From Candidatus Aenigmatarchaeota archaeon (lineage in GTDB: Archaea > Aenigmatarchaeota > Aenigmatarchaeia > QMZP01 > QMZT01): 64,000 bases of DNA. The DNA is taken from NCBI GenBank assembly GCA_041489155.1, contig JBGPQP010000003.1:23297-87296 (forward strand), read 5' to 3'. The notes below the pieces were generated by a model. It made no database searches. It saw nothing but the letters and a program-made list of their open reading frames with translations, and was not told where the DNA came from. A program made the position numbers and the translations under genes. Shown here piece by piece: positions 1 to 41,643 of the stretch; positions within the stretch are counted from its first letter, which is position 1, and every line of letters starts with the position of its first letter.

Positions 1-1082
1 GTCTTCGGGTCGAGCTTCTTGACGAGTTCCATTATCCTGCCTGCCATGTGCGCTGTGTGGCAGTGGAACACCGGCGTGTAACCCTTCGTTATGACCGTCG
101 GGTGCTGCAGAACGATTATCTGCGCGGTGAACTCTTTCGCGACAGTCGGCGGGCTGTTCAGATGGCCGGCGACGTCGCCGCGTTTAACGTCGGTCTTTGA
201 AATGCCTCTTACGTTGAAGCCGACGTTATCGCCAGGCTCTGCTTTCGCAAGCTGCTTGTGGTGCATCTCGACCGATTTCACCTCGCCCTGCACTCCGGAA
301 GGCTCGAAGATCAGCTTGTCTCCCGGCTTAAGTATGCCTGTTTCTACCCTTCCGACCGGGACAGTTCCAACGCCTGTTATCGTGAAGACGTCCTGCACCG
401 GAAGTCTCAGCGGCTTGTGCAGCGGCTTCTCGGGCGGAGTGATCGCGATGTCAAGCGCCTCTACAAGCGTCGGCCCGCTGTACCAGGACATGTTGGTAGA
501 TTTCTTGAAAACATTGTCGCCCAGATAGGCAGAGCATGCCACCATCGGGATCTTGTCCGGCTTGTAACCAAGCGTCTGAAGCAGCTTCGTTACCTCGGTC
601 TTGGTCTTCTCGTACGCGGCCTTCTCGTAGTTCACTGCGTCCATCTTGTTTATCGCGACTACAAGCTGGCCGATGCCAAGGACCTTTGCCAGATACAGGT
701 GCTCTCTCGTCTGCTCCTGGATGCCATCCTTCGCGGATACGACAAGTATCGCTGCGTCGGCCTGGCTCGCTCCTGTGATCATGTTCTTGACGAAGTCCCT
801 GTGGCCGGGGCAGTCGATGACCGTGAAATAGTACTTGTGAGTCTCGAATTCCTTGTGCATGAGGTCAATGGTCAAGCCTCTTTCCCTCTCTTCCTTGAGG
901 TTGTCCATGACGAAGGCGAACTCGAACGTTTCCTTTTTCAGTTCTTTGGCCTTCTCCTTGAGCTTCCTGAGCTCCTGCTCCGGAATCGCTCCTGAATCGA
1001 AAAGCAACCTACCTATAAGTGTAGATTTGCCGTGGTCTACGTGACCAGACGTTATTATGTTGATGTGCGGTTTCTCTGCCAT
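1..1082 (-). CDS. tuf: Translation elongation factor EF-1 alpha (aEF-1A). N-terminal ~360 codons only; the ORF runs off the left edge of the window.
   Basis: Absent from the supplied ORF track because there is no stop inside the window. My reverse-strand translation from the ATG (complement of 1080-1082) reads [27 protein letters not shown]...[20 protein letters not shown]...NKMD...[11 protein letters not shown]. These are the G1, G3 and G4 GTPase motifs of archaeal/eukaryotic EF-1A. The frame stays open to position 1. Confidence 0.9.
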
Positions 1083-1237: not shown

Positions 1238-1606
1238 TTAGTCCTTGCCGACGCCTTCCCTGAGCATGCGCTCGCCCTTGCCGCGCTGCATGTAATACAT
1301 GCCCATGCCTATGAAGAGCATGCCCATCCCCACAAGAACGAAGGAAAGCCACGGGAAGCAGTTCTCGTCCACCGTTCCATCACAGTTGTCGTCCAGCGAG
1401 TTGCCGCAAACTTCGCTTTCCATGGGCACGACCGCGCCCTCGCACTCGCCCCAATTTCCTTCCTTGCAGATAGATCTGCCGGGTTCGCATATGCCCACGT
1501 CCGAGCCGCAGAGGCGCCTTTCGCCTTCCCTGCAGTCCTGTGCGCTGGCAGGAAACGCCATAATAATGACCAGAAACAGCGCCAGGGCAATGAAAGCGAA
1601 TCTCAT
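1238..1606 (-). CDS. Cysteine-rich secreted protein with a C-terminal membrane anchor and a MopE-like DDNCDG metal-binding-type motif
   Basis: Track ORF is 1238..1639. I prefer the internal ATG at 1606, which gives MRFAFIALALFLVIIMAFPASA (signal-peptide-like). The protein has many Cys, the motif CGNSLDDNCDGTVDENC, then a hydrophobic stretch WLSFVLVGMGMLFIGMGMYYM and a basic tail. Confidence 0.5.
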   Translation of the reverse strand: MRFAFIALALFLVIIMAFPASAQDCREGERRLCGSDVGICEPGRSICKEGNWGECEGAVVPMESEVCGNSLDDNCDGTVDENCFPWLSFVLVGMGMLFIGMGMYYMQRGKGERMLREGVGKD

Positions 1607-1649
1607 GTTTAGAAATTGGCACAGCGGAATTAAAACCATTTCATCCGGT

Positions 1650-4061
1650 TTATTTCATTATCTCCAGCGCGATCTTGAACTTCTCCGTTTCTGTCGTCTT
1701 CTCTTTAAGCTTCCCTATCTTCGCGCTCTCGATTTTCATGGTCTTCTGGATATCCCTGAGAACGGGCCTGACCGCGTTGGAAGCAATGGTCACGGCCTTA
1801 AGAGGCTGCGGCATAGGCATCGAGTTCGCCGACTTGAACTTCCTTATCGCCGCGATTACATCGATTGCCATGTCCCCCGCCTTCTCGGCCTTCCTGCTCG
1901 CGAGCGAGCTGTCCAATTGCGGCCATGCGGAGATGTGGATGCTCTTTTTGTCCTCGGCTTTAGCGAAATAAAGATGGTAAATCTCCTCGGTGATGTGCGG
2001 CATGATGGGAGCCATGAGCTTCAGGATGGAGAGCAAAACGTAGTAAAGCGTATACTTCGCGGAGTCGACTTCCCACTGCTCATAAGCAGAGGAGTTGTAG
2101 AGCCTGTCTTTCGCGATTTCCAGATAATAATCGCAGAAAGTGTGCCAGAAGAAATTCTCGGTCTCGACCTTCGCTTTCGAATACTCGTATTTCCCGAAGG
2201 CGATGGTCGAAGCCTTTATGATGTTGCTTATCTTCGAAAGAATCCACTTGTCAATTTCAGTGAACTTTTCCGGCTTATCCGGTTTGTAGTCTTTAAGATG
2301 CATAAGCGTGAATTTGGAGGCGTTCCAGAGCTTCGTCACGAACTTGCTGCCGGTGATGAAATCCTTTTCCTGGTACGGAAGATCTTCACCTAGCTTAGAG
2401 CCGGCTGCCCAGAAGCGCAGCGAATCGGCGCCGTATTTTTCGGTGAGCGTCTGCGGCTCGATTACATTGCCTTTGGATTTCGACATCTTCTTGCCGTGCG
2501 GGTCGAGCGCCCAGCCTGATATCATTATGTCCTTCCACGGATTGACGGTGTTGTGCATCTGGGACTTGACGACGGTGTTGAAGAGCCAGAAGGTTATGAT
2601 GTCGTGCGCCTGCGGCCGCAAAGACATCGGATAAAGCTTCGCATAAACCTGGGGGAATAGCGAGGCAGCGATTTGCGGCGTTAACGATGAAGTAGCCCAC
2701 GTGTCGAGCACGTCATGGTCGCCGCGGAAAGCGCGGGAGCCGCACTTGCAAGCGTGCTTGGGCTTGTCAACCATCGGGTCAACGGGCAGGTCGATTTCTT
2801 CGGGCAGCATGACCTCTCCGCATTTCTCGCAGAACCACACGGGTACAGGCACGCCGAAGCTCCTCTGCCTTGAGATGTTCCAGTCCCATTTCAGGCCCTT
2901 TATCCAGTTGTCGTAGCGCGAGCGCATGAAGGCAGGGTACCATTTCATCCGCCTTCCAGCATCAAGGAACTGCCTCTTGAGGTCGAGGTAGCGGATGAAC
3001 CACTGCTCCGTCATCAGGATTTCCATTTCCGCTCCGCATCTCTCGTGGACGTTCACGACATGAGTGATCTTCTCTATCTTCTCTATGCGGTTTTCATGCT
3101 TCATGTCATCGATTATGGCGTTCCTCGCCTCATGCGAGTTCATGCCGGCGTATTTCCCGGCCTTCTCGTTCAGCCTGCCGTCCTTGTTCATTATCTCTAT
3201 CGGAGGGATCCTGTATTTCTCCATCCATTCCACGTCGTCCATGTCACCGAATGTGCAGTGATACACGGCGCCGCTCCCGAACGCCGGGTCGACGTCCGTG
3301 TTTGCCATGATGTCGACCTCGCGGTTGAAGAATGGTATCCTGGCCTTGGCGCCGATGAATTTTTTGTAGCGCTCGTCCTGCGGGTGGACATGCATCATGA
3401 CGCAAGCGGGCAGCAGCTCAGGCCTCGTCGTCGCGATGGTTATCTGCTCGCCTATGCTTGTGTCGAATTTCATGTAGACGAAGCGCGATTCCTGCTGCTT
3501 GTCCTTCATCTCCACCTGCGCTATCGACGTCTGGCATTCGGGACACCAGAGGAACGGCGTGCGCTTTCTGTAAATCCTTCCGGCATTGTAAAGGTCGATG
3601 AAGGATTTCTGCGAGATCTTCTGACAGTGCTCGTTTATGGTCGTGTAGTAGATCGACCAGTCGCAGCTCATGCCTATCCTCTTCCAGTCGTGGATGTACT
3701 TCGGCCTCACGGTCTTGAGCGTCTCGAGGACCAGATTGACGAATTCCTTCCTGCCCATCTCCGTCCCTTTGACGCCTTTTTCCTTCTCGACAAGGCGTAT
3801 GGTCGCAAGGCCGTTGTCGTCCGTGCCGAAGGGATAGAATATCTCGAAGCCGTTCATGCGCTTGAAGCGGATGACGAAGTCCTGCTGTGAGTATGAGAAC
3901 GCGTGTCCCAGGTGCATCTTGCCCGAAACAGTAGGAGGCGGCGTGTCTATCGAGAAAACCGGCTTCTCGCTTTCAGGGTTGAATTTGAAAATCCCTTCCT
4001 TCTCCCAATATGCCTGCCACTTCTCCTCGCTTTCGCGGAAATTGTAGTCTTTGGGGAACAT
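1650..4061 (-). CDS. valS: Valyl-tRNA synthetase
   Basis: 803 aa. Class I signatures are present: PPPTVSGKMHLGHAFSY (HIGH) and KKMSKSKGN (KMSKS). Length and overall layout are ValRS-like. Confidence 0.95.
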   Translation of the reverse strand: MFPKDYNFRESEEKWQAYWEKEGIFKFNPESEKPVFSIDTPPPTVSGKMHLGHAFSYSQQDFVIRFKRMNGFEIFYPFGTDDNGLATIRLVEKEKGVKGTEMGRKEFVNLVLETLKTVRPKYIHDWKRIGMSCDWSIYYTTINEHCQKISQKSFIDLYNAGRIYRKRTPFLWCPECQTSIAQVEMKDKQQESRFVYMKFDTSIGEQITIATTRPELLPACVMMHVHPQDERYKKFIGAKARIPFFNREVDIMANTDVDPAFGSGAVYHCTFGDMDDVEWMEKYRIPPIEIMNKDGRLNEKAGKYAGMNSHEARNAIIDDMKHENRIEKIEKITHVVNVHERCGAEMEILMTEQWFIRYLDLKRQFLDAGRRMKWYPAFMRSRYDNWIKGLKWDWNISRQRSFGVPVPVWFCEKCGEVMLPEEIDLPVDPMVDKPKHACKCGSRAFRGDHDVLDTWATSSLTPQIAASLFPQVYAKLYPMSLRPQAHDIITFWLFNTVVKSQMHNTVNPWKDIMISGWALDPHGKKMSKSKGNVIEPQTLTEKYGADSLRFWAAGSKLGEDLPYQEKDFITGSKFVTKLWNASKFTLMHLKDYKPDKPEKFTEIDKWILSKISNIIKASTIAFGKYEYSKAKVETENFFWHTFCDYYLEIAKDRLYNSSAYEQWEVDSAKYTLYYVLLSILKLMAPIMPHITEEIYHLYFAKAEDKKSIHISAWPQLDSSLASRKAEKAGDMAIDVIAAIRKFKSANSMPMPQPLKAVTIASNAVRPVLRDIQKTMKIESAKIGKLKEKTTETEKFKIALEIMK

Positions 4062-34572: not shown

Positions 34573-36171
34573 ATGACCTCGTTCAATTCAATAACTATGA
34601 GCTTCGTGAGCCATCCGATGATCAGGCCGAATGCGATAGAGTCGAGACTCTACCAGGAAGCGATAGTCGGCAGGGCGGCAGCGAACGACCTGCTCTGTGT
34701 GTTGCCAACGGGATTGGGCAAGACTCCTATAGCCATCGTTTTAGCCGTTCACCGCCTTGAGAAATTCCCGGGCTCTAAGGTACTGGTCATGGCGCCGACC
34801 AAGCCGCTGACCGAGCAACATCTGCATTCTTTCATGCGGGCGATAAATCTGCCGGATGAGGAGTTCGTCCTGGTCACAGGAAAGACAAAGCCTGGCAGCA
34901 GGCAGGAGCTTTACAGGAACGCCAGAATAATTTTTGCCACGCCGCAGACCATCGAGAACGATCTGGAAGGGGGAAGGATAAACCTGGAGGACTTCTCCCT
35001 CCTGGTCTTCGACGAGGCGCACCATTCGATAGGAGATTACGCTTACCCTTACATAGCTAAGGCGTATGCCGGGCAGGCGAAGAACCGCAGGATCCTCGGC
35101 CTGACAGCATCCCCGGGCGGGACGAAGGCTAAGATAAAGGAGATCATGGACAACCTCGGCATCCGCGAGGTCGAGATACGGACGGAGAAAGATTTCGATG
35201 TGGAGCCGTGGGTGCAGGAGAAGCATGTGGAATGGGTCTACGTCAGGCTGCCGGACGCCTTCGTTGAACTGGGCAAAACGCTCAGAAAAGCCTATATGGA
35301 CAGGCTGGAGAAGCTCAGGAAAATAGGCTTCAACAAGCCCGTCGGCATCATAAGCAAGCGTGACCTTCTGGCGCTGCAACAGAAGCTCATGGCCAGCCCC
35401 TCGCGCGACTACACCAAGTTCTGGGGCGTTTCGCTGGTCTCGCAGGCGATAAAGCTCGAGCACGCGCTCGGCCTGCTTGAGACGCAGGGCATAACATCGC
35501 TCTGGAACTACTTCAGGAAGCTGTCTTCAAGCAAGGCAAAATCGTCACGGAGCGTGCTGAAGGACAAGAACGTGATAAAGGCGATGAAGCTATCCGAAGC
35601 GCTGGAGGCCGAAGGCCGCAAGCATCCGAAGATGGCGAAGCTCAGCGAGCTCGTTAGCTTCCAGCTGCGCGAAAAACCCGCCTCGAAAATCATCCTGTTC
35701 GCGAATTACAGGGAGATGGTCAGGGAGCTAGTCAAGACGCTGTCCAATGTTGAAGGCGCGAGGCCTGGCGAATTCATGGGACAGAAGGAAGGGATGACGC
35801 AGAACGAACAGAAGCAGCGCATACAGGAGTTCAAGGACGGCATCTATAACATACTGGTAACCACATCAATCGGCGAGGAAGGAATTGACATACCGGAGAT
35901 GGAGCTCGCGATTTTCTACGAGCCCGTCCCTAGCGAAATTCGTTCGATTCAGCGGCGCGGACGAGTGGGGCGAACGAAAGTCGGCAGGATAATCATACTC
36001 ATGGCCAAGGGCACGAGGGACGAAGCGTATTACTGGACCGCGCAGAGAAAGGAAAGCATCATGAGGAAAACGCTGTACGAGATGAAGGAGGAATCACGAT
36101 TCCCGGAGGTGCCGACGCGTCAAAGAAGAAAGATTGCCAAGAGAAATCAGAGTAGTTTATCGGATTTCTGA
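34573..36171 (+). CDS. hef: Hef/FANCM-type SF2 helicase (helicase module only, no ERCC4 nuclease domain)
   Basis: 532 aa. Motifs I LPTGLGKT, II FDEAHH, III LTASPG and VI QRRGRVGR. The protein ends ...KRNQSSLSDF. Confidence 0.8.
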   Translation: MTSFNSITMSFVSHPMIRPNAIESRLYQEAIVGRAAANDLLCVLPTGLGKTPIAIVLAVHRLEKFPGSKVLVMAPTKPLTEQHLHSFMRAINLPDEEFVLVTGKTKPGSRQELYRNARIIFATPQTIENDLEGGRINLEDFSLLVFDEAHHSIGDYAYPYIAKAYAGQAKNRRILGLTASPGGTKAKIKEIMDNLGIREVEIRTEKDFDVEPWVQEKHVEWVYVRLPDAFVELGKTLRKAYMDRLEKLRKIGFNKPVGIISKRDLLALQQKLMASPSRDYTKFWGVSLVSQAIKLEHALGLLETQGITSLWNYFRKLSSSKAKSSRSVLKDKNVIKAMKLSEALEAEGRKHPKMAKLSELVSFQLREKPASKIILFANYREMVRELVKTLSNVEGARPGEFMGQKEGMTQNEQKQRIQEFKDGIYNILVTTSIGEEGIDIPEMELAIFYEPVPSEIRSIQRRGRVGRTKVGRIIILMAKGTRDEAYYWTAQRKESIMRKTLYEMKEESRFPEVPTRQRRKIAKRNQSSLSDF

Positions 36172-36183
36172 TCAGGTTAAATG

Positions 36184-37140
36184 TTATATTCGAATGTGGC
36201 GTAATTCACCTCTCGTGTATAGTGTTCTCCGTAAACGAAACAAAGCCCTTTGCCTAAGCTGACTAATTCGTACAGGTGTGACATCATATTTCCAAGCAAG
36301 TTGTCTAGTTTTCCCTAAATCAATGTTATCAGTAAACTTGAAACTCACAACATCGCCATGTTTTCTGCCTTTTTCTACTGTTTTTATTATTCCAAATGAT
36401 TCTAATAGATGTTCTGGAACATCTGAAAGAGGACCATATTTAGATTCAACGTATTTTAAAATTTCAGACCTATCCACGGGTTCAGTAGTTAAATTGTTTC
36501 TATTAAAATCATAATATTTTTCAATTATTGAAAATTCTCTCTCGGGAAGTGAGGATAGAGCTGAGTTCAAAGCCATGCACAACCTTTCTTCAAAATCAAT
36601 CTCAGATGATGTTTTTTTAGATAAAATTAAGTCTTTATACCACCACTGATCTTCTTCTGTGGGTACTGGCCATTTGTCCACCAAGTTTAAAATAATACCA
36701 GCCAGACATTTTCTCATATACAGATCGTAATTCTTATCTTTGCCCGATGTGTGTTTTCTCTGGTTACCTAAAAATTGTATAAACGCTTCCTGAATAATAT
36801 CTTCCCTGTCCTCTTCTGTCGTATCCGACCTTTTTTTGTATTCCACACAATTGTCGAATATTCTCTTCATTATTTCCAAAACCTTACCGGTTTCCATGTT
36901 TTTTTCCAACTTTCCAATTCCATTAGTGTATCCTAAAATTTTCATTTCCTCTCTCGTGGTCAAACCAAGTTCTTTCCTAACATGGGAAGGATTGCTATCG
37001 AAAAAATGTTTATAAACATCACTATGTCCTGCATCGCTTATTTCATAGATATTAGGATTCCTTCGGTTTTTTGTACAAAATCCTAAGTAAAACTCTAAAA
37101 ATTCATCCCTCTTTCCCAAACATATTTCTGTATTTGCCAT
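36184..37140 (-). CDS. Sigma-70-family-like protein (region 2-like plus split region 4-like HTH)
   Basis: 318 aa. EDREDIIQEAFIQFL...NYDLYMRKCLAGIILNLV resembles sigma region 2.1-2.2 (compare RpoE [11 protein letters not shown]...[16 protein letters not shown]). ALSSLPEREFSIIEKYY ... TRQLAWKYDVTPVRISQLRQRALFRLRR resembles region 4.1/4.2. Sampled lines of the gene are AT-rich. Confidence 0.5.
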   Translation of the reverse strand: MANTEICLGKRDEFLEFYLGFCTKNRRNPNIYEISDAGHSDVYKHFFDSNPSHVRKELGLTTREEMKILGYTNGIGKLEKNMETGKVLEIMKRIFDNCVEYKKRSDTTEEDREDIIQEAFIQFLGNQRKHTSGKDKNYDLYMRKCLAGIILNLVDKWPVPTEEDQWWYKDLILSKKTSSEIDFEERLCMALNSALSSLPEREFSIIEKYYDFNRNNLTTEPVDRSEILKYVESKYGPLSDVPEHLLESFGIIKTVEKGRKHGDVVSFKFTDNIDLGKTRQLAWKYDVTPVRISQLRQRALFRLRRTLYTRGELRHIRI

Positions 37141-37177
37141 ATTTCCAATTCAAATTAAATTCTAAGATTTAAATAAG

Positions 37178-37194
37178 CTACTATCTTATAGTAG
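37178..37194. promoter_or_regulatory. Perfect palindrome in the divergent sigma-like/gatD intergenic region
   Basis: ctactat-ctt-atagtag: 7-bp arms and a 3-nt spacer, lying between starts at 37140 (-) and 37253 (+). It could be an operator; no supporting data. Confidence 0.25.
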
Positions 37195-37252
37195 TTAATA
37201 ATTAAAACACCACAAAAAGTTATTTTAAATCATGTAGCATAATAGTCTAATT

Positions 37253-38629
37253 ATGTATTCTCACGAAATACAGCGGCTTCTCGGGCACAAGAACATCGCC
37301 ATTGGCGACAGGGTCCTCGTCCAGAAGGACGGCAAAAAGCACGAGGGCCTGCTCATGCCAAAGCCTTCCCACGGCGACGAGAGAACGGTTCTCATAAAGC
37401 TTGACAGCGGCTACAACGTCGGCTTCGATATAACCGGCCTCGTGATTTCGAAGGCGCATTCGAAAGAGCCGAAAGACGTGAAAGAAGAGGCGAAATACGA
37501 ATTCGGCAGGACGAACAAAGAGCTGCTTGAACTGAAGTTCGATGCGAACAAGCCTAAGGTCGCGCTAATCTCGACCGGCGGCACCATTGCTTCGCGGGTT
37601 GATTACAGGACAGGAGGCGTCTACGCTGTCGAGAATCCCAAGGAGCTCCTGCACAACATACCCGAGCTTTCTCACATAGTTAATCTCGAGATGTTCAGCC
37701 CGATTAAGAAGATGAGCGAGGATCTCGACCCTGAGGACTGGCAGCACATCGCCAGGGAGGTCGCTAAAGAGTTGAACGCCGGAAAAAAGGGTGTGATTGT
37801 AACGCACGGCACGGACACGCTGCATTACACTTCCGCTGCGTTATCATTTTTCCTTCAGAATCTCGGCAAACCCGTCGTCCTTGTAGGCGCGCAGAGGTCG
37901 AGCGACCGGGGCTCGAGCGACGCCGGCCTGAACATCATCTGCGCGGCGCACGTCGCCGTGTCTGACATCGCCGAGGTCGGGACGTGCATGCACGGCAGCA
38001 CGAATGACGCATACTGCCATTTCATCCGCGGGACGAAGGTGCGCAAGATGCACACGACCAGGCGCGACGCCTTCCAGCCGATAAACGAGCCCGCGCTGGC
38101 GAGGGTCTTCGCTGATGGCAGGATCGATATAATCAACAAGAACTTCAGGAAAAGAGATGACAAGAAGAAGGTGGAGGTCGACGCAAAAATCGACCCGAAC
38201 GTCGCGATACTCAAGGTCTATCCCGGCTCGCACTCGAATGTGATCGATTATCACATCAGGAACGGGTGTAAAGGCTTCGTCATCGAGGGGACCGGCATGG
38301 GCCACGTGCCTACTGAAGTCTCGAAAAAGCCTTGGACCCTTGCGATAAAGAAGCACTCGGAAACCATCCCGTTTGTCATAACCTCCCAGACAATTTACGG
38401 CAGGGTAAACCCATACGTCTACACGAACCTGCGCAAGCTGTTCATCGATTCCGGAGCGATTCCTGGCGAGGACATGACCAGCGAAACTGCGTATGTCAAG
38501 CTCATGTGGGTGCTCGGCAAGACAAAGAGTATGGAGAAGATACGCGAGATGATGCTTACGAACTACGTCGGTGAAATCACCAGCCGCACGGAAACCGACG
38601 CCTTTTCTGCAGAGGGATTGAATGAGTGA
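37253..38629 (+). CDS. gatD: Glu-tRNA(Gln) amidotransferase subunit D
   Basis: 458 aa. GatD N-terminal domain followed by an asparaginase domain (LISTGGTIAS, HGTDTL). Confidence 0.92.
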   Translation: MYSHEIQRLLGHKNIAIGDRVLVQKDGKKHEGLLMPKPSHGDERTVLIKLDSGYNVGFDITGLVISKAHSKEPKDVKEEAKYEFGRTNKELLELKFDANKPKVALISTGGTIASRVDYRTGGVYAVENPKELLHNIPELSHIVNLEMFSPIKKMSEDLDPEDWQHIAREVAKELNAGKKGVIVTHGTDTLHYTSAALSFFLQNLGKPVVLVGAQRSSDRGSSDAGLNIICAAHVAVSDIAEVGTCMHGSTNDAYCHFIRGTKVRKMHTTRRDAFQPINEPALARVFADGRIDIINKNFRKRDDKKKVEVDAKIDPNVAILKVYPGSHSNVIDYHIRNGCKGFVIEGTGMGHVPTEVSKKPWTLAIKKHSETIPFVITSQTIYGRVNPYVYTNLRKLFIDSGAIPGEDMTSETAYVKLMWVLGKTKSMEKIREMMLTNYVGEITSRTETDAFSAEGLNE

Positions 38630-39773
38630 GATTTTAACTAAAAAGTTGCACAAAAATTCAGATAGAAAATTTTCGCTTATTTTAGCTAAACCCAAAAATA
38701 AGGCAGACGTTCCTAAAAATTTGTGGGAAAAATCAAAAAGGATAGTGGTTAATCGATTTCGTGAAGAATATGTACCTCTTTATCTCTTAAATTCATATAA
38801 GATTAAGATAGATAAGTTGGTTGTGAACAACACATACGGAAGGCCTATTAAATTTGTTACGGAATTAACAGAGGATTTCGCAAAAATAATAGGTGCTATT
38901 TGTTCGGATGGCCATATAACAACTAAATCAAAAGCTGATTATATCATACAGTTGGTCGATTCCGACAAAACAGCAGTCATAGCTTTTCAGAAATGGATTG
39001 AAAATATATTTGGTAGAAAGTATACTGTCAATAAGGACTATACATCGAACTCGTGGAGAATAGATATAAACAACAAGATCATAGGCCGTTACTTGGTTGA
39101 TGTTATAGGGCTCCCTACCAATAAAAAATCTGATACTGTAAGATCACCAAAAGTTATAATGAGAAGTACTTCAGATATTCAAAAGGCATTTTGCGTTGGA
39201 GCTTTAACTTTCGATGGAGGAATAGACATAAGCGGTAATATAGAATTTTTAACACGTAGCAAACAATTCTATTTGGATATTGTTAGAATCCTGAAAAGAT
39301 TGAATATCGATGCGTACTACAAAAAAACAAGCGATAAAAACGGATTTTGGAGGTTCCATTTGTGCAGATCATCCCCAGAATATAAAAAATGGTTGCAACT
39401 TTTTGAAAAGGGAACAGAGAAATGGGAAAAAATAAAAGAAAACGTAAATGGTTTCAAAAAGATACCAACTTCGGAGAACGAAGTTCTTGAAACATTCAGC
39501 AGAGTATTCCCCTCTAAAAACAGAAGCTTTGTAAACATCTCTGATTTTTTTAATTGCCTAAAGAAAGCTGGAAATTGTAATATAGAGGAACTAACGAAGA
39601 AATTAAATATAGATAAAACCACAACAAATAAATATAGAAAAGTTCTGAAAGATTGCAATATAATACGCGAAGAACACATTGAGGGCAAGAAATATAAAAT
39701 AGAGATATGCTTCAATAAAAATATACACGAATGGAGAATACCAAAAAGGTCTTATAATGGAATTGGATTATAA
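38622..39773 (+). CDS. Free-standing double-motif LAGLIDADG homing-endonuclease-like protein with a C-terminal winged-helix domain
   Basis: 383 aa. Two LAGLIDADG-type motifs, FAKIIGAICSDGHI and FCVGALTFDGGI, both keep the acidic residue before G. The connector GLPTNKKSDTVRSP is typical of the family. The C-terminal NIEELTKKLNIDKTTTNKYRKVLKDCNII looks like an HTH. It overlaps gatD by 8 nt and gatE by 17 nt and is very AT-rich. Confidence 0.6.
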   Translation: MSEILTKKLHKNSDRKFSLILAKPKNKADVPKNLWEKSKRIVVNRFREEYVPLYLLNSYKIKIDKLVVNNTYGRPIKFVTELTEDFAKIIGAICSDGHITTKSKADYIIQLVDSDKTAVIAFQKWIENIFGRKYTVNKDYTSNSWRIDINNKIIGRYLVDVIGLPTNKKSDTVRSPKVIMRSTSDIQKAFCVGALTFDGGIDISGNIEFLTRSKQFYLDIVRILKRLNIDAYYKKTSDKNGFWRFHLCRSSPEYKKWLQLFEKGTEKWEKIKENVNGFKKIPTSENEVLETFSRVFPSKNRSFVNISDFFNCLKKAGNCNIEELTKKLNIDKTTTNKYRKVLKDCNIIREEHIEGKKYKIEICFNKNIHEWRIPKRSYNGIGL

Positions 39774-41643
39774 AAAAATGGGTCTTAAATGTGGCATTGA
39801 GGTGCATAAACAGCTAGACACGGAACGCAAGCTTTTCTGCAACTGCAGGGCGCGCTTTTCCGAGGCGAAGCCGCAGGCAGAGGTTGTGCGGAAACTGCGA
39901 GTGGTCGCCGGCGAGACCGGCGAAATCGATGTGGCGGCGCTGGGTGAAGTTGCTAAAGGAATCGAATTCGTCTACAGGGTTTATCCCGATGAGACCTGCC
40001 TCGTCGAACTGGACGAAGAGCCAATTCATTCTCTTAATTCCGAAGCGCTTGATATTGTCCTCACCATAGGCGGACTTCTGAAGTGCGAGGTGCCAGAGGA
40101 AATCCACGTGATGAGGAAGACTGTTTTGGATGGTTCAAACACTTCCGGCTTCCAGAGGACGGCGATTGTTGGGTTGGACGGAAAAATGAAAACGTCTTTC
40201 GGCGAGGTCGGCATAGAAAACCTGTGCCTCGAGGAGGAGAGCTGCCAGATAATGGGGAGAGAGGGGAACCGCGTGTTTTATGGCCTGGACAGGCTTGGCA
40301 TCCCGCTCGTCGAGATTGGCACTTCGCCCGATATCCGCTCGCCAGAACAAGCGAGAGAAGTCGCTGAGAAACTTGGCATGATAGTGCGCTCGACCGGGAA
40401 GGTGAAGCGAGGCCTCGGCACGATCAGGCAGGACATAAATGTTTCCATCGCGGGCGGCGCGAGAGTCGAGATAAAGGGTGTGCAGGAACTGAGGATGATT
40501 CCCAAGTTCGTCGAGAACGAGGCGCTGAGACAAAAGGCGCTGCTTGAGATAAGGAATGAGCTGAAGAAAAAAGGCTTCAAGCCGGTTAGGCCGAAAGTTG
40601 TTCATGTTTCCCACATATTCAAAGGTTCTGAATCGAAGATAACGAAGGACAAGGCAACGTATGCGATTCTCATTCCAGATTTCGCGGGCTTCATGAAAAG
40701 GCAAATCACGCCCACGAGAACGCTTGGGAATGAGATAGCGAATTACGTGAGAGCGCATTCCGACCTGAAGGGCATAATCCACAGCGACGAGGAACTCGAG
40801 AAATACAAGCTGGGCAAGGAATTTGGGAAACTCAGAACGGCGATGAAAGCGCATCATGGCGACACGCTCATAATCGCGGTCGGCGAGAAGGAAGCAGTTC
40901 AAAGGACCATGGACGTCGTTGCCCGGAGAATAAACCAGCTTACTGAAGGCGTTCCGAAGGAAGTGCGAAAAGCGCTTGAAACGGGTGAGACGGAATACAT
41001 GCGTCCCCTTCCGGGGTCGGCCAGGCTTTACCCGGAGACCGACATACCGCCGATACGCATCACCCGCAAGAAGCTCGCTGAGATTCGAAGAAATCTGCCC
41101 GAGCTGCTCGCTGAAAAGGAGGAGAGGCACAAGAAAGAGATAGTCGAGAAGTTCAGGCTAAGCGAGGAGATAACCAAGCAGCTGGTAAAGGCCGGCAAGA
41201 AAAAGCTTTTCGATGCGCTTGTGCAGACGGGCGCTGACCCGAAGGTGATAGCCACCACGCTGACCTCAACGCTGCCTTATCTGAAGAAGAGCGGCGTCGC
41301 AATCGATAAGCTCGAGGAACGCCATTTCGCCGCGCTTTTCGTGAAATTCAGGGAAGGACATCTGACGAAGGAAGCGCTTCCTGATGTTCTGAAAGAGCTT
41401 GCCGCCCATCCCGGCATCGACATAGAGAACGCAATAAGGAAAACGAAAATTGTCTCGCTCAAGCTGGACGATCTTAAGAAGATAATCCAGAAGACCATTG
41501 AAAAGAACAGCGAACTGGTCGGTGACGAGCGGGGCGAGAAAGTCTTGCTGGGCCTGGTCATGCAGGTGGTCAGGGGCAAGATCGACCCGACCATCGTAAT
41601 GAGTGAGCTTGAGATTGCATTAAGAAAAATCAAACAAAAATAA
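39757..41643 (+). CDS. gatE: Glu-tRNA(Gln) amidotransferase subunit E
   Basis: 628 aa with the MELDYKKMGLKCGIEVHKQL start. GatB/E core plus the GatE-specific insertion and a YqeY-like tail. Confidence 0.92.
   Translation: MELDYKKMGLKCGIEVHKQLDTERKLFCNCRARFSEAKPQAEVVRKLRVVAGETGEIDVAALGEVAKGIEFVYRVYPDETCLVELDEEPIHSLNSEALDIVLTIGGLLKCEVPEEIHVMRKTVLDGSNTSGFQRTAIVGLDGKMKTSFGEVGIENLCLEEESCQIMGREGNRVFYGLDRLGIPLVEIGTSPDIRSPEQAREVAEKLGMIVRSTGKVKRGLGTIRQDINVSIAGGARVEIKGVQELRMIPKFVENEALRQKALLEIRNELKKKGFKPVRPKVVHVSHIFKGSESKITKDKATYAILIPDFAGFMKRQITPTRTLGNEIANYVRAHSDLKGIIHSDEELEKYKLGKEFGKLRTAMKAHHGDTLIIAVGEKEAVQRTMDVVARRINQLTEGVPKEVRKALETGETEYMRPLPGSARLYPETDIPPIRITRKKLAEIRRNLPELLAEKEERHKKEIVEKFRLSEEITKQLVKAGKKKLFDALVQTGADPKVIATTLTSTLPYLKKSGVAIDKLEERHFAALFVKFREGHLTKEALPDVLKELAAHPGIDIENAIRKTKIVSLKLDDLKKIIQKTIEKNSELVGDERGEKVLLGLVMQVVRGKIDPTIVMSELEIALRKIKQK

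What the first reader, a model, noticed from the sequence alone, without database searches (positions are those of the whole stretch)
38622..39773. AT-rich free-standing LAGLIDADG + wHTH gene inserted exactly between gatD and gatE and translationally coupled to both
Between the two subunits of the archaeal Glu-tRNA(Gln) amidotransferase lies a 383-aa ORF. Its start overlaps the gatD stop (ATGAGTGA, 8-nt overlap), and its end overlaps the gatE start by 17 nt.

It carries two LAGLIDADG-type motifs (IIGAICSDG and VGALTFDGG, both with the acidic residue retained). It also has a family-typical GLPTNKKS connector and a C-terminal HTH-like module.

The composition is strikingly foreign. Line 38641-38700 has 15/60 G+C, compared with 27/60 at 38521-38580 (gatD) and 38/60 at 39841-39900 (gatE).

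The pattern fits intergenic homing of a free-standing endonuclease into a conserved operon. Alternatively it could be a domesticated DNA-binding protein riding on gatDE expression. I am not aware of a described gatD-HEG-gatE arrangement.
Basis: partly seen in the sequence, partly recalled or inferred. Interest (0 to 1): 0.65.

Follow-up and report, generated by a model that had tools for sequence, protein, structure and literature searches.

The report
Homing endonuclease gene inserted at gatE start
A selfish-looking DNA-cutting enzyme gene has been inserted between the two subunit genes of an essential archaeal tRNA enzyme; it uses the downstream gene's original start signals and supplies replacements. 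It is a well-documented new variant of a known kind of mobile gene, but cutting activity has not been tested.

Summary
The ORF at 38622-39773 (383 aa) overlaps the gatD stop (ATGAGTGA) and overlaps the gatE start by 17 nt. It is the lowest-GC 1.15-kb stretch in the window (0.315 against a mean of 0.51). It is a two-motif LAGLIDADG protein with a C-terminal winged helix, shown by Pfam LAGLIDADG_3, an AlphaFold model (pLDDT 87) and Foldseek matches to intein and intron LAGLIDADG enzymes. D96, D198 and K169 are conserved across the family.

The host is an Aenigmarchaeota archaeon. Of its three closest syntenic gatE relatives, two carry an empty site: gatD and gatE overlap by the same ATGAGTGA, and gatE begins MSEI. 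The third has a proteasome-like ORF there. In the window the endonuclease ORF begins with that same ATGAGTGAGATT. It has therefore taken over gatE's ribosome-binding site, start codon and first four codons. Its 3' end supplies an AAGGT-ATG-GAA-TTG replacement start for gatE. The next ~20 gatE codons are AT-rich and donor-like.

Homologues sit immediately upstream of gatE in 12 other distinct DPANN loci, always at ~31% GC. One more distant member sits between pheS and pheT. dN/dS is 0.1-0.2.

Best reading: a free-standing homing endonuclease gene targeting the 5' end of gatE. Cleavage is untested, and a domesticated role is not excluded. This is a new variant of a known kind.

The parts
37253..38629 (+). 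gatD (Glu-tRNA(Gln) amidotransferase subunit D), 458 aa. Its 3' end is host-type right up to the stop codon.
   Evidence: NCBIfam GatD equivalog at E = 1.3e-149; Pfam GatD_N, Asparaginase and Asparaginase_C. The 3' end aligns with the relatives L021, L022 and L019 up to ...GAATGAGTGA.
38612..38633 (+). Captured ancestral gatE translation-initiation region, now serving the endonuclease ORF. It comprises an SD-like GAGGG (38612-38616), the ATG (38622) and codons 2-4 (AGT GAG ATT = MSEI), all overlapping the gatD stop.
   Evidence: In the empty-site relatives L021 and L022 the same sequence ...AGAGGGxTTGAATGAGTGAAATC... is the gatD stop plus the gatE start (MSEIDFSKLGLK). Its function as a ribosome-binding site and coupling signal is inferred.
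38622..39773 (+). Free-standing LAGLIDADG-wHTH endonuclease ORF, 383 aa, GC 0.32.
38634..39765 (+). Inferred inserted segment of 1,132 nt. Deleting it joins ATG AGT GAG ATT to GAT TAT AAA... and restores a gatE collinear with the empty-site alleles (MSEI|D(Y/F)xK...).
   Evidence: Derived from the alignment of the window with L021 and L022. The boundaries are accurate to within a few nucleotides.
38886..38912 (+). LAGLIDADG motif 1 (IIGAICSDG, residues 89-97). D96 is the predicted metal-binding acid.
   Evidence: G91, A92, D96 and G97 are invariant in 11-12 family members. The motif aligns with the first motif of the TliVMA intein endonuclease.
39108..39131 (+). GLPTNKKS, corresponding to the 'block D'-type segment of intein-class LAGLIDADG enzymes. 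K169 is invariant and is the candidate catalytic lysine.
   Evidence: P165, K169 and S170 are conserved. The segment aligns with LGIPESKKARNWKVP of the TliVMA intein. The catalytic role is inferred from PI-SceI K301 (my own knowledge).
39195..39221 (+). LAGLIDADG motif 2 (VGALTFDGG, residues 192-200). D198 is the predicted metal-binding acid.
   Evidence: G193, T196 and F197 are invariant. Position 198 is D in 11 of 12 members and E in L012.
39537..39713 (+). C-terminal winged helix-turn-helix, residues ~306-364.
   Evidence: HTH_24 at E = 1.7e-4 (residues 311-349), with weaker MarR, TrmB, Lrs14 and ArsR hits. In the AlphaFold model the elements run H306-316, E318-320, H321-328, H332-344, E348-352, E360-364. 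Foldseek aligns 302 columns with WhiA, which has the same LAGLIDADG+HTH architecture.
39746..39765 (+). Replacement translation start for gatE, carried by the element. It comprises an SD-like AAGGT (39746-39750, within the conserved ...PKRS codons of the endonuclease) and ATG GAA TTG (39757-39765).
   Evidence: The sequence (A/G)AGGTCTTA(A/T)AATG is conserved at the endonuclease/gatE junction in L003, L004 and L014. GAGG or GGAG-type elements occupy the same position in L006, L008 and L016. RBS function is inferred.
39757..39816 (+). Donor-type (co-converted) 5' tract of gatE, about 20 codons with AT-rich synonymous codons.
   Evidence: In the first 6 codons, 16 of 18 nt are identical to the endonuclease-bearing L004 but only 10 of 18 to the empty-site L021. 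GC3 is 0.3-0.4 over nt 1-60 and 0.8-0.9 over nt 61-120. From the sequences, GC3 over these ~21 codons is ~0.38 in the window and ~0.73 in the empty-site allele L021.
39757..41643 (+). gatE (subunit E), 628 aa. Beyond roughly codon 20 it is host-type.
   Evidence: GatE equivalog at E = 3e-217. It is 76-79% identical to P0013, P0016 and P0019, whose loci share the synteny helicase-gatD-gatE-purA(-)-268 aa(-)-IMPDH.

Best explanation
The ORF is a free-standing, single-chain (two-motif) LAGLIDADG homing endonuclease gene with an extra C-terminal winged-helix DNA-binding module. It belongs to a small clade found in DPANN archaea whose home site is the 5' end of gatE.

Proposed mechanism (inferred): the enzyme cuts gatE alleles that lack it, either at the gatD/gatE junction or in the conserved GLKxG(I/L)E(I/V)HQQL-coding box just downstream. 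The break is then repaired from an endonuclease-bearing allele, which copies in the gene plus a short flanking tract.

In this Aenigmarchaeota genome, 1,132 nt were inserted between codons 4 and 5 of the ancestral gatE. Two consequences follow. First, the endonuclease ORF now begins with gatE's own ribosome-binding site, ATG and MSEI codons, and so inherits the ATGA-type stop/start overlap with gatD. Second, the 3' end of the element carries a replacement SD-like AAGGT and an ATG-GAA-TTG start, so GatE is still made with a near-normal N-terminus. This makes the insertion close to harmless for an essential operon.

Shown here: the fold, retention of the catalytic-type residues, the empty site, the insertion boundaries, the foreign composition, the donor-like flank, the recurrence at gatE and purifying selection. 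Inferred: DNA cleavage, the exact target, homing as the transfer route and translational coupling.
For: 1. Protein identity. LAGLIDADG_3 scores above the Pfam cut-off. The best sequence matches in the PDB are VMA-intein endonuclease domains. The AlphaFold model has pLDDT 87.2 and pTM 0.86. Foldseek top matches are TliVMA, PI-PfuI, PI-TkoII, I-Tsp061I, WhiA and I-DmoI, at E = 5e-11 to 1e-6.
2. Active-site residues. D96 is invariant, position 198 is D or E in every member, and K169 is invariant across copies as low as ~30% identical.
3. Empty site. L021 (GCA_043808015.1), L022 and L023 share the window's synteny and have gatD and gatE overlapping by ATGAGTGA. The window's endonuclease ORF starts with that very sequence.
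4. Foreign composition and donor-like flank. GC3 is 0.305 against 0.66-0.74 in the flanking genes, and the first ~20 gatE codons are AT-rich and L004-like.
5. Site specificity. Twelve other distinct loci (L001/2, L003/L015, L004, L005/L013, L006/7, L008-10/L017, L012, L014, L016, L018, L024 and the pheT-linked L011) carry a homologue. Wherever the downstream gene is on the contig, the homologue abuts or overlaps the start of gatE, whatever lies upstream: gatD, an HD protein, a nucleotidyltransferase, TrmB or a gene on the opposite strand.
6. Rarity. Only 11 homologues were found by sequence search, against more than 6,700 GatE proteins at E <= 1e-100. Forty-four gatE clusters rank above the only listed gatE known to be endonuclease-linked (P0077, 55%), but only three of them (P0013, P0016, P0019) were inspected, and none of those carries the gene.
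7. A functional protein. dN/dS is 0.10-0.19 in five pairs.
8. One frameshifted copy (L024), as expected from the decay phase of a homing endonuclease life cycle, although an assembly error is also possible.
9. No intron or intein surrounds the gene.
Against: - No cleavage, target-site or transfer data exist.
- Endonuclease identity correlates with the identity of the adjacent gatE (r = 0.86). Most of the family's history is therefore compatible with vertical co-inheritance plus loss, rather than frequent homing.
- Strong, long-term purifying selection and 12 of 13 intact copies are more than the classical invade-decay-lose cycle predicts. This would also fit a host-useful function.
- GC3 stays at 0.26-0.31 in five GC-richer hosts even though synonymous divergence between copies is saturated. 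That means either many recent arrivals or selection for AT-richness, which the simple model does not predict.
- The conserved gatE box is not consistently altered in endonuclease-bearing alleles. L003 and L014 keep ATCCACCAGCAGCT, as the empty sites do, so a target in that box would leave them unprotected.
- The left recombination junction shows no obvious homology arm with known donors.
Confidence: 0.62

Rival explanations
1. Domesticated or dual-function LAGLIDADG-wHTH protein, analogous to WhiA. It would be a sequence-specific DNA (or RNA) binding factor kept because it benefits the host, for example by regulating gatE or GatD:GatE stoichiometry or by acting on heteromeric tRNA enzymes. It would be inherited with gatE and occasionally lost.
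For: - It has the same architecture as WhiA, a LAGLIDADG core plus a C-terminal HTH. Foldseek aligns 302 columns to WhiA 8dy9_I at E = 1.7e-7 (PMC3384342).
- dN/dS is 0.10-0.19 across deep divergence.
- Its identity tracks the identity of the adjacent gatE (r = 0.86).
- It is always tightly joined to the gatE start.
- A paralogue sits between pheS and pheT, another two-subunit tRNA enzyme.
- The constant AT-rich codon usage could be a selected expression feature.
Against: - WhiA-type domestication is defined by loss of the catalytic acids and lysines (PMC3384342). Here D96, D/E198 and K169 are conserved in all members.
- The gene is absent from the three closest syntenic relatives inspected, two of which have a clean empty site.
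- It is extremely rare among gatE-bearing archaea.
- It has foreign composition, and the flanking gatE tract is donor-type.
- GatDE works without it in nearly all archaea.
Confidence: 0.2
2. A stranded relic. A homing endonuclease gene invaded once and is no longer active or mobile in this genome. The ORF persists only because gatE's ribosome-binding site and start codon now lie inside it, so deletions are selected against.
For: - gatE's replacement start and SD-like element are embedded in the 3' end of the ORF.
- One homologue (L024) is frameshifted.
- The homing endonuclease life cycle predicts decay after fixation (general knowledge; the abstract of PMC13619312 listed).
Against: - The full 383-aa ORF is intact, with all motif residues.
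- Purifying selection acts on the whole protein, not only the 3' end (dN/dS 0.1-0.19).
- The unameliorated composition and the donor-like flank argue that the insertion is recent rather than old.
Confidence: 0.12
3. Assembly chimera. The assembler spliced a low-GC organism's gatE-upstream region into a higher-GC contig.
For: The sequence is metagenome-derived, there is a sharp GC step at both ends, and the conserved gatE 5' sequence could mislead an assembler.
Against: - Both junctions are in frame and functional, and no long shared k-mer with any known donor occurs at the left junction.
- The protein occurs on 2 contigs.
- The same low-GC gene in higher-GC flanks is seen in independently assembled samples: L008, L009 and L010 come from three data sets, and there are also L001/L002, L003 and L014.
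Confidence: 0.02

Closest known systems
Free-standing homing endonuclease genes of T-even phages ('intronless homing'), especially mobE (HNH), which is inserted between the nrdA and nrdB subunit genes (PMC2790892; PMC2988022)
   Same: The endonuclease gene stands alone, with no intron or intein. It is lodged between the genes for two subunits of one essential enzyme and is integrated into the host transcription and translation unit. It shows presence/absence polymorphism among relatives, and flanking DNA is co-converted.
   Different: The enzyme family differs: LAGLIDADG plus a wHTH, rather than HNH or GIY-YIG. The host is a cellular archaeal (DPANN) chromosome, not a phage. The insertion lies inside the first codons of the downstream gene, captures its start and supplies a replacement. 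Activity is untested here.
Intein-associated LAGLIDADG endonuclease domains of Thermococcales (TliVMA 7qsu/7qss, PhoVMA 7qst, PI-PfuI 1dq3, PI-TkoII 2cw7)
   Same: These are the closest matches in both sequence and structure: phmmer E ~1e-4 over residues 73-244, Foldseek E = 5e-11 to 4e-9, and Pfam LAGLIDADG_3. They share the motif 1 / block D lysine / motif 2 layout.
   Different: There is no Hint (splicing) domain. The ORF has its own start and stop codons and is not translated within the host protein. It also carries an added C-terminal wHTH.
WhiA/DUF199 bacterial regulators (3hyi, 8dy9)
   Same: The architecture is the same: a monomeric two-domain LAGLIDADG core tethered to a C-terminal HTH (PMC3384342).
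   Different: WhiA has lost the catalytic acids and lysines and is universally and vertically conserved in Gram-positive bacteria. This protein keeps D96, D198 and K169 and is sporadic and compositionally foreign.
Yeast HO endonuclease
   Same: It is a free-standing LAGLIDADG enzyme thought to derive from an intein endonuclease (PMC3384342), with an appended DNA-binding domain (my own knowledge).
   Different: HO is domesticated for mating-type switching, retains Hint remnants and uses zinc fingers. It has no association with a home site that it interrupts.
Fungal mitochondrial LAGLIDADG or GIY-YIG genes inserted in frame at the ends of genes such as rps3, atp6 and cox, with duplication of the displaced gene terminus
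   Same: The endonuclease ORF is fused to host-gene codons, and the element carries a substitute copy of the displaced terminus, so the host gene stays functional.
   Different: Those cases usually involve the 3' end of the host gene and occur in organelles. Here it is the 5' end, including the RBS and start codon, of a chromosomal archaeal gene within a translationally coupled operon.
Archaeal intron-encoded LAGLIDADG enzymes (I-DmoI, I-Tsp061I)
   Same: The host domain is archaeal and the fold is monomeric with two motifs (Foldseek TM-score 0.65-0.72, normalised by target length).
   Different: Those enzymes lie inside rRNA introns. Here there is no intron signal, either from Rfam or as junction pairing, and there is an extra ~80-aa N-terminal region and a wHTH.

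Membership tests
LAGLIDADG homing endonuclease (monomeric, two-motif) | [quoted passage not shown] | tested here: met
   Pfam LAGLIDADG_3 at 33.2 bits against a 22.5-bit cut-off. In the AlphaFold model, H84-96 and H184-198 are each followed by beta-hairpins. Foldseek probability is 1.00 to I-DmoI, I-Tsp061I, PI-PfuI and TliVMA.
LAGLIDADG homing endonuclease (monomeric, two-motif) | A metal-binding acidic residue at the C-terminal end of each motif | tested here: met
   D96 is invariant. Position 198 is D in 11 of 12 members and E in one.
LAGLIDADG homing endonuclease (monomeric, two-motif) | Conserved active-site lysine(s) (I-DmoI K42/43 and K120/130; PI-SceI K301/K403) | tested here: inconclusive
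   K169 is invariant and aligns with the KK of the TliVMA block D-like segment. No structural superposition on an active site was possible, and a second lysine could not be assigned.
LAGLIDADG homing endonuclease (monomeric, two-motif) | Site-specific double-strand cleavage of the allele that lacks the gene | not testable with these tools
   This requires an in vitro cleavage assay on the L021/L022-type junction.
Mobile (homing) element | Presence/absence polymorphism at one precise site among close relatives, with an intact empty site | tested here: met
   L021, L022 and L023 are empty, with the ATGAGTGA overlap. The window is filled. Synteny is identical.
Mobile (homing) element | Co-conversion of flanking host sequence | tested here: met
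   The first ~20 gatE codons are donor-like and AT-rich: 16/18 against 10/18 nt identities, and GC3 of 0.38 against 0.73. The tract is short, so the statistical weight is modest.
Mobile (homing) element | Element phylogeny incongruent with host phylogeny | tested here: inconclusive
   Endonuclease identity tracks that of the adjacent gatE overall (r = 0.86). For the window, however, the endonuclease is 66-71% identical to copies whose gatE is 61-64% identical over its first 300 residues, while endonuclease-free relatives have 78-84% identical gatE.
Free-standing endonuclease gene (not intron- or intein-borne) | No surrounding self-splicing intron, archaeal bulge-helix-bulge intron or intein splicing domain; own start and stop codons | tested here: met
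   There is no Rfam hit at E <= 1 in 36000-40500. Pairing between the two junctions is -19.5 kcal/mol, against -18.8 +/- 3.7 for shuffles. There is no Hint or intein Pfam domain. The ORF has its own ATG and TAA.
WhiA/DUF199-type domesticated LAGLIDADG regulator | LAGLIDADG core plus a C-terminal HTH | tested here: met
WhiA/DUF199-type domesticated LAGLIDADG regulator | Catalytic acidic and basic residues lost (PMC3384342) | tested here: not met
   D96, D/E198 and K169 are retained throughout the family.
WhiA/DUF199-type domesticated LAGLIDADG regulator | Universal, vertically inherited presence in the host lineage | tested here: not met
   It is absent from the closest relatives. Only 1 locus was found among 185,579 species-representative genomes.
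Intein | In-frame insertion within the host protein, flanked by Hint splicing blocks (N-terminal Cys/Ser, C-terminal His-Asn plus a nucleophile) | tested here: not met
   It is a separate ORF in a different frame from gatE (39757-38622 = 1135 = 3n+1) and has a stop codon. No Hint domain hit was found.

The most novel reading that the evidence does not exclude
The LAGLIDADG-wHTH family (176 clusters at E < 1e-30 and ~1,000 at E < 1e-10) may be more than a set of ordinary selfish endonucleases. It could be a DPANN-wide class of 'start-codon-capturing' genes that settle at the boundary of translationally coupled two-subunit tRNA-enzyme operons (gatD|gatE, pheS|pheT). They would be kept under selection, with a selected AT-rich coding style, because they have acquired a host-relevant role. 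Such a role could be setting subunit stoichiometry, or binding the operon's DNA, mRNA or tRNA, while they remain nuclease-competent.
Probability: 0.15. Interest if true: 0.75.

Novelty: new variant of a known kind. Interest (0 to 1): 0.55.

Why it matters
If the enzyme is active, three things follow.

1. It would be a clear example of intronless homing by a free-standing LAGLIDADG enzyme in cellular archaeal chromosomes. It would imply DNA exchange and homologous repair among ultra-small DPANN archaea, whose gene flow is poorly understood.
2. It shows a neat way for a selfish gene to enter an essential, translationally coupled operon without harm: take over the downstream gene's start and bring a spare one.
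3. It defines a largely unannotated family of LAGLIDADG nucleases with an added winged-helix module, mostly labelled 'hypothetical protein'. Their long composite target sites could interest genome engineers.

For annotation, it warns that the gatE start in such loci is easily mis-called; one gene caller chose M8. It also warns that AT-rich islands next to gatD are insertions.

Tried and rejected
- Group I/II intron or other structured RNA around the ORF: no Rfam match at E <= 1 in 36000-40500.
- Archaeal bulge-helix-bulge intron: pairing between the two junctions is no better than for shuffled sequence (-19.5 against -18.8 +/- 3.7 kcal/mol). A splice is also unnecessary, because gatE has its own start.
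- Intein: no Hint domain, a different reading frame and its own stop codon.
- Viral or plasmid origin: no relative in IMG/VR contigs, no PHROG family, and only a weak intein-like match in a crAss-like phage terminase.
- Further copies of the family in the window or in the flanks of fetched loci: none found with a family HMM.
- Bacterial-type promoter and terminator scan: the excess of promoter-like hits simply reflects AT-richness. It is uninformative for an archaeon and was not used.
- Searching the species-representative genomes with the 11-sequence alignment failed for lack of a conserved block. It was repeated with 7 closer sequences.
- The idea that the family-wide N-terminal motif [FLI]D[LFV]xK[LM] is a relic of gatE's own N-terminus [ILF]D[YF]xK[LI]: suggestive, but low in information. 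The motif is also present in the pheT-linked member (FNLFKL), so I keep it only as speculation.
- Immunity by changes in the GLEIHQQL-coding box: not consistent across endonuclease-bearing alleles.


Full report
**1. The observation**

The window has an ORF at 38622-39773 (+) of 383 aa, lying between gatD (37253-38629) and gatE (39757-41643).
- The ORF's ATG lies in ATGAGTGA, whose TGA is the gatD stop. Its last 17 nt overlap the gatE start.
- gatD and gatE are securely identified: NCBIfam equivalogs at E = 1e-149 and 3e-217, plus the expected Pfam domains.
- The ORF is the lowest-GC 1152-nt stretch in the 64-kb window (0.315; mean 0.510, sd 0.039). Its GC3 is 0.305, against 0.74 for gatD and 0.66 for gatE.
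- Only two AT-rich islands longer than 1 kb exist in the window, and both flank gatD.

**2. What the protein is**

- Pfam LAGLIDADG_3 is hit above its curated cut-off (E = 6.3e-8). HTH_24 falls 0.4 bits below its cut-off at residues 311-349. A 67%-identical homologue passes that cut-off.
- The best sequence matches among solved structures are the endonuclease domains of Thermococcus VMA inteins, covering residues 73-244.
- An AlphaFold model built on the 11-sequence family alignment is confident (pLDDT 87.2, pTM 0.86). It shows two helix-plus-beta-hairpin LAGLIDADG domains followed by a helix / helix-turn-helix / beta-wing module at residues 306-364.
- Foldseek against the PDB returns intein LAGLIDADG endonucleases (TliVMA, PI-PfuI, PI-TkoII), the archaeal intron enzymes I-Tsp061I and I-DmoI, and WhiA, the domesticated LAGLIDADG+HTH regulator.
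- WhiA has lost the catalytic acids and lysines (PMC3384342). This family keeps D96 (invariant), D198 (E in one member) and K169 (invariant) down to ~30% identity.
- No Hint domain, no intron RNA and no junction pairing were found. The gene is therefore free-standing.

**3. The host and the empty site**

GatE homologues identify the host as an Aenigmarchaeota archaeon. The three closest GatE proteins were traced to their contigs.
- L021 (GCA_043808015.1, 78% identity) and L022/L023 (76%) share the window's order: helicase, gatD, gatE, purA(-), a 268-283 aa gene(-), IMPDH. Here gatD and gatE overlap by 8 nt and nothing lies between them.
- The DNA alignment shows that the empty sites read ...GCAGAGGGxTTGAATGAGTGAAATCGATTTTTC.... 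This encodes the gatD stop and a gatE that starts MSEIDFSKLGLKCG. The window reads ...GCAGAGGGATTGAATGAGTGAGATT and then diverges into AT-rich sequence.
- The endonuclease ORF therefore begins with the ancestral gatE SD-like element, ATG and four codons.
- On the right side, collinearity with the empty allele resumes at GAT (39766). Removing 38634-39765 (1,132 nt) recreates MSEI|DYKKMGLKCG....
- The element's 3' end provides AAGGT (39746-39750), six nt of spacer, and ATG GAA TTG as a new start for gatE. The same (A/G)AGGTCTTA(A/T)AATG junction occurs in L003, L004 and L014. Other SD-like purine runs occupy that place in L006, L008 and L016.
- The first ~20 codons of the window's gatE use AT-rich synonymous codons. 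They resemble the endonuclease-bearing L004 allele (16 of 18 nt) more than the empty alleles (10 of 18). After that, gatE becomes host-like, with GC3 of 0.8-0.9. I read this as a short co-conversion tract.

**4. The family and where it lives**

A search of 5.8 billion proteins found only 11 homologues. Scans of species-representative genomes and metagenome contigs added L014, L016 and L018.
- Wherever the downstream gene is on the contig, it is gatE, and the endonuclease ORF abuts or overlaps its start.
- The upstream neighbour varies. It is gatD in the window, L001/2, L008-10 and L016. It is an HD protein with or without a nucleotidyltransferase in L003 and L014, TrmB in L012, other genes in L005 and L006, and two small ORFs after gatD in L024.
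- A more distant member (P0009, 32% identity) lies between pheS and pheT and overlaps the pheT start by 13 nt.
- An exhaustive profile search shows a much larger superfamily: 176 clusters at E < 1e-30 and 997 at E < 1e-10. The few named members come from Woesearchaeota, Nanoarchaeia, Diapherotrites and MSBL1 archaea. Most are annotated as hypothetical. Their genomic contexts could not be retrieved.

**5. Evolutionary signals**

- All copies have GC of 0.24-0.35. In five hosts whose gatE GC3 is 0.54-0.73, the endonuclease GC3 is 0.26-0.31.
- dN/dS is 0.10-0.19 in five pairs, so the protein is under purifying selection.
- One copy (L024) is frameshifted at an A-run. This could be decay or an assembly error.
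- Pairwise endonuclease identity correlates with the identity of the adjacent gatE (r = 0.86). The family has therefore largely co-diverged with its hosts, or it moves only among relatives, as homology-dependent homing would require.
- For the window itself the pattern is discordant. Its gatE is 78-84% identical over the first 300 aa to endonuclease-free relatives, but only 61-64% identical to the gatE of the loci holding the nearest endonucleases (63-71% identical).
- Forty-four GatE clusters rank above the only listed endonuclease-linked one (P0077 = L014, 55% over the full length). Only three of them (P0013, P0016, P0019) were checked for context.
- Together with the composition and the donor-like flank, gain in the window's lineage from an AT-rich relative is the most economical reading. 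Precise loss in the relatives, which is also part of a homing life cycle, cannot be formally excluded.

**6. Mechanism proposed**

Shown here:
- an intact LAGLIDADG-wHTH ORF with catalytic-type residues;
- an exact empty site in close relatives;
- insertion boundaries that capture gatE's start and supply a substitute;
- recurrence at the same gene boundary in other loci.

Inferred:
- The enzyme cuts gatE alleles that lack it. The target either spans the insertion point, and so is destroyed by insertion, or lies in the adjacent GLKxGLEIHQQL-coding box.
- The break is repaired from a filled allele.
- The wHTH lengthens the recognition site.
- The ATGA overlap and the embedded SD-like element keep gatD, the endonuclease and gatE translationally linked, so the essential amidotransferase is unharmed.

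The box-target version is weakened because L003 and L014 keep an empty-type box.

**7. Comparison with what is known**

- In behaviour, the closest system is the free-standing endonuclease genes of T-even phages. T4 mobE sits between nrdA and nrdB, the two subunit genes of ribonucleotide reductase (PMC2790892).
- In sequence and structure, the closest relatives are intein LAGLIDADG domains.
- In architecture it equals WhiA, but it fails WhiA's defining loss of catalytic residues.
- Full-text searches for LAGLIDADG with gatE, for homing endonucleases in DPANN archaea, and for free-standing LAGLIDADG genes in archaea found no description of this arrangement. These are keyword searches of an open-access subset, so absence is not proof.

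**8. Verdict**

It is a new variant of a known kind: a free-standing LAGLIDADG-wHTH homing endonuclease family in DPANN chromosomes, homing to the gatE start by start-codon capture. It is not a categorically new system.

Open points:
- There is no biochemical evidence of cleavage.
- The persistent AT-rich coding style and the long-term purifying selection leave room for a domesticated or dual role (about 0.2).
- The odd EVHKQL substitution in the co-converted tract is unexplained.

Noticed in passing
window 36184-37140 (-): This is the window's second AT-rich island (GC ~0.33-0.36), a 318-aa ORF on the opposite strand immediately upstream of gatD. It has weak sigma-70 region 2/region 4-like matches, which is odd for an archaeon: TIGR02937 at E = 1.7e-9, below its cut-off; Sigma70_r4 at E = 9e-4; and PHROG sigma factor families at E ~1e-4. 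The helicase|gatD slot it occupies varies among relatives. It is empty in L022, holds a 300-aa TPR-like ORF in L021, and holds an HNH endonuclease plus small ORFs in L019. There was no match in phage genomes.
   Followed up: partly
L019/L020 4233-4967 (+), with 1354-2025 (+) and 1-949 (-): The closest relative by GatE (79%) has a different gene between gatD and gatE: a 244-aa proteasome/HslV-like ORF (Pfam Proteasome at E = 6.6e-8; PHROG HslV family at E = 4e-8). It also has an HNH endonuclease with homing-endonuclease-associated repeats and a 471-aa LAGLIDADG_3 protein just upstream of gatD. The surroundings of gatD look like an insertion hot spot in this clade.
   Followed up: partly
L011 2873-4156 (+): A 32%-identical family member (P0009, Woesearchaeota MAG) lies between pheS and a pheT fused to AlaX-like domains. 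It overlaps the pheT start by 13 nt. This is the same downstream-start-overlap design, at another two-subunit tRNA enzyme.
   Followed up: partly
All endonuclease-bearing loci (window, L001, L003, L008, L014 against L004, L012, L018): The endonuclease gene keeps GC3 at 0.26-0.31 even in hosts whose gatE GC3 is 0.54-0.73, although the copies differ by saturated synonymous divergence. This means either repeated recent arrivals from AT-rich relatives or selection for AT-rich coding. It remains unexplained.
   Followed up: partly
window 39799-39816 (gatE codons 15-20): The window's GatE reads EVHKQL, whereas nearly all other GatE sequences inspected have E(I/V)H(Q/R)QL (L012 reads ECHFQL). K18 lies inside the donor-like tract. 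It might be an immunity change or may be neutral.
   Followed up: no
L001 2361-4105; L008 7168-8372: In two loci, gatE downstream of the endonuclease is called as two pieces: 242 + 344 aa in L001 and 77 + 325 aa in L008. An independent assembly of the L008 organism (L010) reads through the first break, so at least that one may be an assembly or strain artefact.
   Followed up: partly
L024 1147-2263: This family member (63-65% identical) is split by a frameshift at an A-run. The two tblastn segments fall in frames 1 and 2 and cover residues 8-252 and 239-374. It is either a decaying copy or a homopolymer assembly error. Upstream lie the 3' end of gatD, a DUF8150 ORF and a 76-aa ORF.
   Followed up: partly
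window 39757 against 39778: The gene call stored in the protein database starts the window's gatE at M8 (P0012, 621 aa), which hides the 17-nt overlap. The conserved N-terminal residues in other gatE genes favour the 39757 start.
   Followed up: yes
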